DNA from: Lingula anatina
Taxonomy: Eukaryota; Animalia; Brachiopoda
Length of the DNA: 64,000 nt
Direction: 5' to 3'
NCBI GenBank assembly: GCA_051362555.1
Contig: CM120640.1
Coordinates: forward strand, 70,348,788-70,412,787
In this document: positions 802-3,800 of the stretch, piece after piece
How positions within the stretch are numbered: the stretch's first letter is position 1
How the letters are laid out: the number at the start of each line of letters is the position of its first letter
Position numbers and translations under genes: made by a program
The notes under the pieces: generated by a model
Databases searched by the model: none
What the model was told of the DNA's origin: nothing
The model's input: only the letters and a program-made list of their open reading frames with translations

Positions 802-3800
802 TACCGTAGCATCCACCACAAAATTGACAAGACCTCGTTGAGACTGTACAGACTATACTTCTCCAGACCTTACCAATGGTATGTTTGATTATTTATAATT
901 TAGCACTATACCTTAAACAAGATTCCATCCAGGTATCAGGTAATTAGAGCAGTGTCATCAGTCAGGTTTTATATCTTAAAATTTGAAATTTTAATAGATT
1001 CTTGATTGAATTTAAATCAGAAAAACAAAATTTTGTTAAGGGCACGGATGGCAATTTTTTGGGTTACGAAAGTGAAATTTTGCTGTTGACTTGTTTTGTG
1101 GTGGTTTGTTTTCAGTAAAAAGTTCATGATATTTTTAACCAGGTTCCTTTTCTCGGTGATGTTTGTTGTACTAATCCTGGCATTCTTCGAGAAGCCATCC
1201 TCACTGACCACAAACTGGACGTCCGACATGAGGAATACTGGTCAGAGACTGAACCCTCCTTGTGGTCTGACAGAGGGCATTGAGATCATCTGTCTGCTGC
1301 TGTTTGTGGGAGATGTCATCCTCAAGGTAAATAGGACTGATACTGGAAGGTGGGCCAGAACATTATACAGAGAGAAGTATTATAAGATTTAGGTTGACTG
1401 CATATTGCCTCTTTTTCTCTTTCCCCATGGGTTGTAGTCTAGGGCTTGTCTGGTTACATTTGTCCCATCTTTTCTCAGTGTGTACCTGTTCATTTCCATT
1501 TCCTTTTCTTCAAATCTGTGGAAATTCCTTCTTGACCTGTTCTTTCCCAAAGTTCTTTGTTGCTTATCTTGTTGCTAACTAACTATGTGATTTAGAAGGC
1601 AGCTGAAGTATTGCATTTTGTGATTGATTTACTATACTCTAAGGACATCTTATTTTTCTGAAAATTACTGGTGGTTATGAGATGTACAGGTATTTCATAT
1701 CAGATGAAATGCTTGGATTCTCTTTTTTAACATCAAATTTTTATTTCTTTTTCTTTGTAATTTACTAGTATTTACTGATTTATTTAGATTTCCAGATACA
1801 AAATTAAAAATCAGAGAAAATGTGGAAGGTAGTTTCTGCTGTGCCTGCACAGTACTGTGCTGCCACTTGCTGAGGAGCTTGCTCACTAACATGATCAAAC
1901 TGATTTCAGAGCTACTTCAAAGGTCCAGAAGTCCTGAAGAGTCCCTGGGTCATCTTGTACATCTGTGCTCTGCTAGTGTCTGTGGTGGACTGGACAGTGT
2001 CCATGATATACTTTTGTAAAGAGGTAAGAGAACAGTGCTTTCTATCAGGATTTTTCACAAAATCTAAAGTTACTCATTAAAATTATATTACATTGGCTCA
2101 TTACATTGGTAGTTGTGTTGTAATCGAGATAGAAAAGTGTTTAGCTTGAGGATTTTGTTTAGCATAGAAATTAGTTTTCTTTTCTGCAGACAGTAAAGTT
2201 GATATCTTGAGAAATTCAAGAGTGTTTACTCTGTGTTAGAGTAGTTGATCTATTTTCTTTTTTCTCTTATGTTTCAGATTGTAAGAGTTAGGAGATATAT
2301 AAGACCATTTTTTATTCTTCAAAATAGTTCTCTCATGAAAAAAACTGTCAACTGTTTGAAGAAAACTCTGCCTGAAATTATCAGGTAATGTTTTGCTATT
2401 TTTGCTGGATATTAATATACAATTATTTGAAAGGAGATATTATATTTAGAAATATTAAATCGTTTAAAGAATGTGCAAATGTTTTAAAGTACTGCACTGT
2501 TGTAATAATGTGTGTTAGGAACCCTGAATTGTAGCTCATTCAAATGTATTTTTGTGCAGACTATTTCATTGTGAAGTGGCCTTGCTTTGAAAGTATATAT
2601 TTGCTGATGTATATTTGACATATTCCAGTATTCTGGTCCTTTTGGTGTTCCATGTGTACTTTTTTCTGTTGCTTGGAATGCTGCTTTTTACTGAGGTAAG
2701 TGCTGCCATCTGCTGTGTAGGTAAGTGCTGCCATCTTCTGTGTAATAATGCCACTGTCATGGTATTTGGTCAGTTTTAGTTGCATGCTCCTGTAATCCAA
2801 GTTCAATTTTGATTATTGCATGCTTATGATAATGTTTTGCTATGTGAAAATGATGACTGTAAGAAGTAAAGGAAAATACTGTGAAAATGCTGAAATTGTC
2901 TTGTGATTTTGCTGTAGAATATTGGCTTTTTTCTAGGAATATGATCCTATCCCAGCAAATCCAAATGGAACTGATCCAGAAGGGGTAGGTTATTGCATAT
3001 TATTTTCATAAATATTTACAATAAAATCTATTAGATTGATAGTCATACTGATAAATGCACTATGGGGAATTCTGCTGTCTACAGCCTTAAATGAAGAACA
3101 TGCATCCATGCTAAAAATGAAAAGCAAAAACATCCAAATTTGATAAGCGTTTTGTTTATTTCTGCCAGAATTTTCAAAATATAAGACATTTGCAGAAAGT
3201 GTCTGATTTTTGTTAGCGTAATGATACGAGTAAGTCATGACAGTTGCTGTTTACAGCCTGCTCAAGGTGGAATACCATGGACCAATATCACTCGTTACAA
3301 AAGCATTTATGATATTGGTAAAGCTTTAAAAGTACTGAACATACTGCTGACCACTGCAAACCATCCTGATGGTGAGTCACTCAGTTTTCAACAAATTAAC
3401 CACAGTTCCTTGTGGACTTTCTCTCAGTACAGGCCGTTCGATCGCAATATGAAGATTGAAATATTTTTGCCATTCTAACCAGCCGCCCTCCAACAGCCAT
3501 TTTGTTTTCCAGCTTAGAGCAGTTTGACTGTAGAACAAATAGGAATGAAGGATTCTGCCATTTCCACTGCTGTGTATGAAGTGGTACCCTCCTAATCACC
3601 AGGCTTTGCTTTTTGACTCTTTCAGCCTGCGACCAACAGCTCCAGAAATGGCTCTAGTGCATTTATTGAGGATTTTGAAGCTGGTTTAAAGAATTTGTTG
3701 GTGCTTATTACCACAGCTAATCATCCTGATGGTAAGTTAGGATAAATGGAAAGCAGCTGAAATTTTGCTTTGCTTGTTAACCTTTAGGAAGTCATGCCAG

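What the first reader, a model, noticed from the sequence alone, without database searches (positions are those of the whole stretch)
3257..3731. TPC2 has two mutually exclusive exons for the domain-I turret, pore helix and selectivity filter
Seen in sequence: two tandem exons both start CCTGC (Pro-Ala), both end CATCCTGATG|GT (TTANHPD), have the same phases (0 to 1), intact splice sites and open frames. Including both gives a TAG inside exon B, and skipping both puts TGA (4101) in frame, so exactly one must be used. They differ strongly upstream of the filter: A is basic ([22 protein letters not shown], one N-glycan sequon) and B is acidic ([25 protein letters not shown], two sequons). High nucleotide divergence with a conserved filter peptide suggests an old duplication with both copies kept under selection. 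Established knowledge: mutually exclusive pore or turret exons change Na+/Ca2+ preference in invertebrate Cav3 and alter the filter in invertebrate NALCN, and mammalian TPC2 shifts between Na+ and Ca2+ permeation depending on agonist. I do not know of this arrangement described for TPCs. Inference: a splice-encoded switch of luminal pore charge, ion selectivity or pH/Ca2+ sensitivity in a lysosomal channel.
Basis: partly seen in the sequence, partly recalled or inferred. Interest (0 to 1): 0.88.

Follow-up and report, generated by a model that had tools for sequence, protein, structure and literature searches.

The report
Hidden second pore exon, brachiopod TPC2
A lamp-shell gene for a lysosomal ion channel carries two old copies of the exon that builds one side of its pore; only one copy appears in the RNA examined, while the other is intact and predicted to be folded shut, so it is likely either a rarely used alternative channel mouth or a recently retired one.

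Summary
The gene is Lingula TPC2. Exons A (3257-3371) and B (3626-3731) are diverged tandem copies of the domain-I turret/pore-helix exon; either alone keeps the frame, both or neither give stops. Use of both is not shown: in 8 RNA runs of unknown tissue, B has 62 upstream and 122 downstream junction reads, A has zero depth; the RefSeq model uses B. Yet A was long under protein-level selection: 0 of 16 replacement sites versus 3 of 5 silent sites differ in TTANHPD, and the introns no longer align. An intron element (3503-3535) is predicted to pair over A's acceptor (top ~1% of control sites, post hoc), as in ATE1. The filter is identical in both; A puts Lys where human E260 attracts cations, and Asn at a position hydrophobic in 36 of 36 orthologues. 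No second copy was seen in other animals. Verdict: likely a repressed, restricted alternative (0.5) or a recent relic (0.35). The scan noted such duplicates in other channels, none in TPC2.

The parts
802..11517 (+). TPC2 (TPCN2) gene, 24 coding exons within the window when B is used; the first 74 residues were not found in the window
   Evidence: B model identical to RefSeq protein P0001 at 715 of 717 residues; best PDB match human TPC2; N-terminus search
2937..2984 (+). Constitutive exon, start of the IS5-P1 luminal turret; ends in phase 0
   Evidence: Junction reads 2695-2937 and 2984-3626
3257..3371 (+). Exon A: intact duplicate of the turret / pore helix IP1 / filter I exon, 38 codons, basic; strong donor, weak acceptor; no reads
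   Evidence: zero depth in 8 of 8 runs
3503..3535 (+). Intronic element predicted to pair (about 25 bp, -27.9 kcal/mol) with 3249-3275, covering exon A's acceptor AG and first 19 nt; can also fold on itself (3501-3539)
   Evidence: prediction only, found post hoc, no covariation data
3626..3731 (+). Exon B: the used turret / pore helix IP1 / filter I exon, 35 codons, acidic
   Evidence: 62 upstream and 122 downstream junction reads in 8 runs; present in P0001
4101..4166 (+). Constitutive exon, pore helix IP2 and start of IS6; starts in phase 1
   Evidence: Junction reads 3731-4101 and 4166-4375

Best explanation
The Lingula TPC2 gene carries two diverged tandem copies of its domain-I pore exon, of which B is the one spliced in every RNA run examined, and A is likely a still-functional, rarely used alternative, predicted to be kept off by a weak acceptor that an intron element pairs over, and predicted to give a channel with the same filter but a more positively charged luminal entrance. 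Shown: duplication, frame logic, default use of B, past protein-level selection on A. Inferred: the duplication arose in the lineage leading to Lingula; double inclusion would be removed by nonsense-mediated decay; A would be released in a cell type or stage not sampled here when the element (3503-3535) folds on itself or is bound by a protein. Inferred function: Lys at the position of human E260, with net charge +3 against -2 over the 19 residues before the filter, would weaken cation (especially Ca2+) capture at the lateral luminal entry, tuning conductance or pH/Ca2+ sensitivity rather than rebuilding the filter.
For: Selection on A: last 7 codons 0 of 16 replacement sites and 3 of 5 silent sites differ (Fisher p 0.008); last 23 codons dS about 1.2, dN about 0.47; flanking introns unalignable. 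Replacement changes are uneven, 0/16 in the filter against 18/37 in the helix, p 0.0003, which neutral decay would not give. Neutral simulation: frame, AG/GT and filter all survive in 0.8% of 20000 runs at 0.2 substitutions/site and 0 of 20000 at 0.6. A's donor outscores 17 of 23 used donors. A keeps hydrophobic residues at helix positions -22, -19, -15, -12, -10, -9, -8. Shared Ile(-22) and Lys(-14), seen in 0 of 36 orthologues, tie A to B. Masking duplex: 0 of 200 shuffles, rank 1 of 22 exons of the gene, highest predicted pairing at the acceptor of 22; 12 of 1581 control YAG sites, 4 of 313 GC-matched, are as strong; region z -2.9. Precedents: ATE1 R1R3 pairing hides one 3' splice site (PMC7797038, passages); Cav3 exon 12a lysine changes ion preference without altering the filter (PMC9694082, abstract and passages); E260, D276, D660 line the cation entry in simulations of human TPC2 (PMC11844439, passages); three quarters of human tandem-exon isoforms are tissue-specific (PMC9741552, passages).
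Against: Exon A: zero depth and no junction in 8 of 8 runs laid (8 of 9 listed), pooled 95% ceiling 2.4-4.7% of reads, 4.2-6.1% by distinct starts. The RefSeq protein uses B and its 90% cluster has 1 member, no isoform. No A-like protein in two searches (both weak for a 38-40 aa query). A's acceptor scores below 24 of 24 (long window) or 22 of 24 (short window) used acceptors and 39% of decoy AG sites score as high. A has Asn at the Leu266-equivalent and Val at the Ser264-equivalent, each 0 of 36 in orthologues, and its helix scores 7.9 against 19.6 for B and a minimum of 22.8 for orthologues. Outside the filter dN/dS is not distinguishable from 1 (codons -8 to -23, p 0.42). The duplex was found after looking at a fold and after another pairing had failed; with windows shifted into the intron it ranks 2 and 4 of 22; no significant competing partner near B (66 and 221 of 500 shuffles). 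B itself has Ala, not Glu, at the E260 position. No second copy in other animals.
Confidence: 0.5

Rival explanations
1. Exon A is a recent relic: it was a working alternative for a long time, has since been silenced (weak acceptor, pairing over the acceptor), and has not yet collected a stop or frameshift.
For: Zero reads in 8 of 8 runs; single RefSeq form; weakest acceptor of the gene; non-conservative Asn and Val in the pore helix. In simulation an exon silent for 0.02-0.05 substitutions/site still looks intact in 60-28% of runs.
Against: Needs loss to be recent relative to a divergence of dS about 1.2; the donor is still near consensus; helix changes accumulated while the filter stayed fixed, so they predate any loss.
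Confidence: 0.35
2. Exon A is used rarely but makes a poorly conducting or non-conducting subunit, or serves as a poison exon (A+B inclusion, decay), so it dampens TPC2 rather than retuning it.
For: Asn at a position hydrophobic in 36 of 36 orthologues; A+B gives an early stop, and decay would hide such transcripts from poly(A) RNA, matching zero reads.
Against: Silent-site excess in the filter codons points to selection on a folded pore, which a pure poison exon does not need; no A-B junction read.
Confidence: 0.12
3. Exon A is an assembly artefact or a chance look-alike.
For: The older RefSeq protein of this gene contains a 95-residue internal repeat absent from the window model, so assemblies of this locus have had errors; no DNA run was laid on exon A.
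Against: A and B differ at 28 of 69 bases in the alignable last 23 codons, far beyond the few allelic differences seen in reads; homology beats 500 of 500 shuffles with matching phases at both ends.
Confidence: 0.03

Closest known systems
Invertebrate Cav3 T-type channel exons 12a/12b (PMC9694082; abstract and passages seen)
   Same: Alternative exons for the S5-P1 turret and pore helix of one domain; filter residues unchanged; one form adds a lysine near the outer pore.
   Different: Both Cav3 exons are expressed, tissue-biased, conserved across protostomes and functionally tested. Here A is unseen in RNA, found in one lineage, in a two-domain endolysosomal channel, and includes filter I itself.
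NALCN exons 15a/15b and 31a/31b (PMC3557258; abstract and section 7 seen)
   Same: Tandem duplication of a pore-loop exon, mutually exclusive use, lophotrochozoan examples.
   Different: NALCN copies differ at the filter residue (E or K); the TPC2 copies have the same filter.
Human ATE1 exons 7a/7b, R1R3/R3R4 competing pairings (PMC7797038; passages seen)
   Same: An element in the intron between the two exons pairs with the first exon's 3' splice site region and favours the second exon.
   Different: In ATE1 the pairings are conserved and proven by compensatory mutation, with a second partner R4; here one pairing is predicted from one genome and no significant second partner was found.
Two-pore channel 2 (human TPC2, PDB 6NQ0/8OUO)
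   Same: Orthologue by sequence; filter I TTAN and filter II VVNNW present; intron after the NPD codon also seen in two other animals.
   Different: His at the Asn274 position in both copies (4 of 36 orthologues); duplicated pore exon not seen in the other TPC2 records examined.

Membership tests
Two-pore channel 2 | Best match to TPC2 rather than TPC1 or TPC3 | tested here: met
   P0001 vs PDB: TPC2 E 3e-158, TPC3 2e-41, TPC1 9e-33 or weaker; window model matches P0001 at 715 of 717
Two-pore channel 2 | Two six-helix domains with filter I (T-A-N) and filter II (V-N-N) | tested here: met
   TTANHPD in A and B, VVNNW in exon 10384-10469
Two-pore channel 2 | PI(3,5)P2/NAADP-gated endolysosomal current | not testable with these tools
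   Needs expression and patch clamp
Mutually exclusive tandem duplicated exons | Adjacent homologous exons with the same phases at both ends | tested here: met
Mutually exclusive tandem duplicated exons | Each alone keeps the frame; both or neither do not | tested here: met
Mutually exclusive tandem duplicated exons | Both exons occur in mature transcripts | tested here: inconclusive
   B yes, A zero depth in 8 of 8 runs; tissues unknown, 6-30% of each run read, 37 of 62 and 93 of 122 reads come from three runs of one study
Mutually exclusive tandem duplicated exons | Both copies under purifying selection | tested here: met
   For the filter codons and for the past only; present-day constraint not testable without orthologous A exons
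Mutually exclusive tandem duplicated exons | Pair conserved in relatives | tested here: inconclusive
   No brachiopod or phoronid relative was reachable; single copy in 2 of 2 other animals with genomic cover; no alternative pore exon among 37 members of 9 clusters
NALCN-type alternative selectivity filter | Copies differ at a filter residue | tested here: not met
   Last 7 residues identical
Cav3 exon 12-type turret switch | Charge change beside the outer pore with unchanged filter | tested here: met
   Lys in A at the E260-equivalent; net +3 vs -2 over positions -26 to -8; by ungapped alignment only, no structure
Cav3 exon 12-type turret switch | Measured change in ion preference between isoforms | not testable with these tools
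   Needs electrophysiology
ATE1-type RNA-pairing control of exon choice | Intervening intron element pairs over the first exon's 3' splice site | tested here: inconclusive
   Predicted, top about 1% of controls, post hoc; no covariation data
ATE1-type RNA-pairing control of exon choice | Competing second partner near the second exon | tested here: not met
   Best partners 221 of 500 (exon B region) and 66 of 500 (downstream intron) shuffles

The most novel reading that the evidence does not exclude
Lingula makes, in a restricted cell type or stage, a second TPC2 whose luminal mouth is switched by splicing from acidic to basic under control of an RNA pairing that locks exon A's acceptor, giving the first splice-encoded tuning of Na+/Ca2+ flux in an endolysosomal two-pore channel and a natural probe of the E260 entry path and pore helix behind TPC2's changeable selectivity.
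Probability: 0.25. Interest if true: 0.75.

Novelty: new member of a known kind. Interest (0 to 1): 0.45.

Why it matters
TPC2 is unusual in changing its Na+/Ca2+ preference with the agonist, and the determinants include sites away from the filter (PMC13578460, abstract seen). A natural pair of pore helices and turrets on one fixed filter would test directly whether luminal charge and helix packing set that bias, and would extend the Cav3/NALCN theme of splice-tuned pores to organelle channels. If A is a relic it is still a clear case of a duplicated pore exon kept by selection and then shut off. Limits: one lineage, no transcript of A yet, no function measured.

Tried and rejected
No whole genome was held, so other TPC genes of the species were not checked. 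Exon A as query: 2 candidates, none scored; 0 hits among 1.84 billion representatives; 0 PDB hits while B hit TPC1 and TPC2 weakly; short queries, so weak negatives. A pairing between the upstream intron (3050-3078) and exon B that would loop out A beat 60 of 60 shuffles but not genomic controls (51 of 249, 9 of 43 GC-matched): rejected. A third decayed copy: not found by profile. Steric exclusion: the A-B intron is 254 nt, ordinary for this gene, and a branch-like CTAAT lies 34 nt before B: not supported. Splicing-regulator motif counts in the flanking introns were unremarkable. Gene conversion as the cause of the shared filter: unlikely, since 3 of the first 4 filter codons differ at the third base. 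No structure was predicted: the spliced A protein could not be submitted and a B model would not decide anything. Literature searches for a TPC with mutually exclusive pore exons (listings and abstract starts only) showed none; PMC9741552 does not mention TPCN in its main text, its supplements were not read, and most subscription papers are outside the library.

Full report
What is there. The window holds, on the + strand from 802 to 11517, 24 coding exons of a TPC2 gene. One exon matched a Lingula anatina RefSeq protein at 100% (P0001); my model with exon B equals it at 715 of 717 residues, and P0001 matches human TPC2 at E 3e-158, far above TPC3 and TPC1. Between the constitutive exons 2937-2984 and 4101-4166 lie exon A (3257-3371) and exon B (3626-3731), both phase 0 to 1 with AG/GT ends. 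Either alone gives an open frame to the terminal stop; both together stop at residue 248 and neither stops at residue 200.

Is each exon used? Nine RNA runs were offered by species label; eight were laid. Junction 2984-3626 had 12, 0, 2, 15, 10, 2, 11, 10 reads (62) and junction 3731-4101 had 26, 3, 2, 37, 30, 0, 14, 10 (122). Every bin over exon A had depth 0 in all eight, and the loose ends shown at 2984 and 4100 were B sequence (one row was not shown). Pooled, A is below 2.4-4.7% of transcripts, or 4.2-6.1% counting distinct starts. Limits: tissues are not given, 6-30% of each run was read, three runs of one study supply most reads, and three runs come from animals with several base differences from the window. 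The RefSeq protein uses B and its cluster has a single member. Searches with the A peptide found nothing, which is weak for so short a query. So B is the default, and use of A is not shown.

Was A under selection? Aligned without gaps from the shared 3' end, the last 7 codons differ at 3 of 5 silent and 0 of 16 replacement sites (p 0.008); over 23 codons dS is about 1.2 and dN about 0.47 (p 0.04); over codons -8 to -23 alone the ratio is not distinguishable from 1 (p 0.42); none of four intron comparisons beats shuffles. The lower confidence limit of dS is about 0.4-0.5, so about 0.2 per copy. A neutral copy would keep frame, AG/GT and filter in 0.8% of simulations at 0.2 and in 0 of 20000 at 0.6, but in 28% at 0.05 (A itself used as the starting sequence). 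Replacement changes avoid the filter (0/16 vs 18/37, p 0.0003). A therefore made a working pore for most of its history; a recent loss is not excluded.

Origin and spread. A and B share Ile(-22) and Lys(-14), seen in 0 of 36 orthologous segments (36 of 37 proteins had the motif), and His(-3), seen in 4 of 36; I infer duplication in the lineage leading to Lingula. Of 22 metagenome loci, 10 held the pore-I motif, each once; two animals had introns and cover on both sides (L006/L007 are one sequence; L018), and both show one copy with the same intron position after the NPD codon. Ten protein clusters were listed; 40 members of 9 were examined (one cluster had a single member read, two 108-residue fragments were left out), 37 had the motif, and none showed an alternative pore helix. 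No brachiopod or phoronid relative was reachable.

What A would change. Using the human alignment 254-276: filter I Thr271-Ala272 and Asp276 are the same in A and B, and the main Na+ determinant Asn653 (PMC6424560, passages) lies in a constitutive exon. The NALCN comparison (PMC3557258, abstract and section 7) therefore fails at the filter. At the Glu260 position (Glu or Asp in 25 of 36 orthologues) A has Lys and B has Ala with acidic neighbours; net charge over positions -26 to -8 is +3 for A, above all 36 orthologues, and -2 for B. Simulations place E260, D276 and D660 on the lateral luminal entry and as off-axis Ca2+ sites (PMC11844439, passages). That resembles Cav3 exon 12a, where a turret lysine shifts ion preference (PMC9694082, abstract and passages). 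Against a normal channel: Asn at the Leu266 position and Val at the Ser264 position, each 0 of 36, and a helix score (7.9) below B (19.6) and all orthologues (22.8 or more), though above 99% of random open stretches.

How A is kept out. A's donor outscores 17 of 23 used donors; its acceptor is among the weakest (below 24 of 24 or 22 of 24, by window). A first candidate pairing, upstream intron with exon B, failed genomic controls (51 of 249). The fold of the region then showed a helix between 3249-3275, which covers A's AG and first 19 nt, and 3503-3535 in the A-B intron: -27.9 kcal/mol, 0 of 200 shuffles, first of 22 exons, highest acceptor pairing of 22; region z -2.9; 12 of 1581 control sites and 4 of 313 GC-matched ones are as strong. 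It ranks first in 3 of 5 shifted windows, second and fourth in the others, and no significant partner near B was found; when A's acceptor is forced open the element folds on itself. This was found post hoc among about ten pairings tried, so it is suggestive only. It recalls the R1R3 pairing of human ATE1 (PMC7797038, passages), and it fits either regulated release or silencing.

Known and new. Tandem duplicated exon substitutions are enriched in voltage-gated ion channels, keep core residues, and are mostly tissue-specific (PMC9741552, passages). Six searches (listings only) showed no report for a two-pore channel; supplements and most subscription papers were not seen. The scan had no look-alike stretch and its notes on duplicated pore exons concern other channels (unchecked). 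I class this as a new member of a known kind.

Verdict. Observation confirmed; interpretation partly supported. Best reading: an old, lineage-specific duplicate, B the default, A a repressed and likely restricted alternative that would alter the luminal entrance, not the filter (0.5). Rivals: recent relic (0.35), dampening or poison role (0.12), artefact (0.03). Interest 0.45; 0.75 if A is expressed and changes ion flux (probability 0.25).

Noticed in passing
window 7856-8891: Tandem array of a 64-nt unit, 16.2 copies, 93% alike, made of the last 42 nt of the domain-II S4 exon (7786-7897), its donor and the first intron bases; it leaves about 15 further donor-like sites behind the true one, some copies altered in the S4 arginine codon.
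   Followed up: partly
window 2694-2744: 25-nt unit in two copies that duplicates the donor of exon 2629-2695; reads use the first donor.
   Followed up: partly
window 3169-3229: 61-nt pseudo-exon with a fair acceptor and donor (scores 5.2 and 6.5), phase 0 to 1, with an in-frame stop; its donor sits 27 nt before exon A's acceptor and could hinder it. No spliced reads.
   Followed up: partly
window 3073-3087: 14-of-15 copy of exon A's acceptor region; no pore-like peptide follows.
   Followed up: partly
P0001 residues 596-690: The RefSeq protein holds a 95-residue internal repeat of three domain-II exons that the window lacks; likely an error of the older assembly or model.
   Followed up: partly
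window 3632, 3655, 3706: Variants in exon B seen in reads: Thr/Ala at codon 3, and two silent changes.
   Followed up: yes
P0018 / P0054 and P0015 / P0049: Annotated starfish TPC2 isoforms differ by a 12-residue insertion, and apple-snail isoforms by one residue, in the same domain-I turret upstream of the pore helix: the turret is varied by splicing in other ways elsewhere.
   Followed up: no
window 3372-3625: The intron between A and B has the highest GC content (0.43) of the 24 introns counted in the gene.
   Followed up: partly
window 59259-60067 and 63217-63996: Two further minisatellites, 36-nt x 22 and 39-nt x 20, unrelated to the finding.
   Followed up: no
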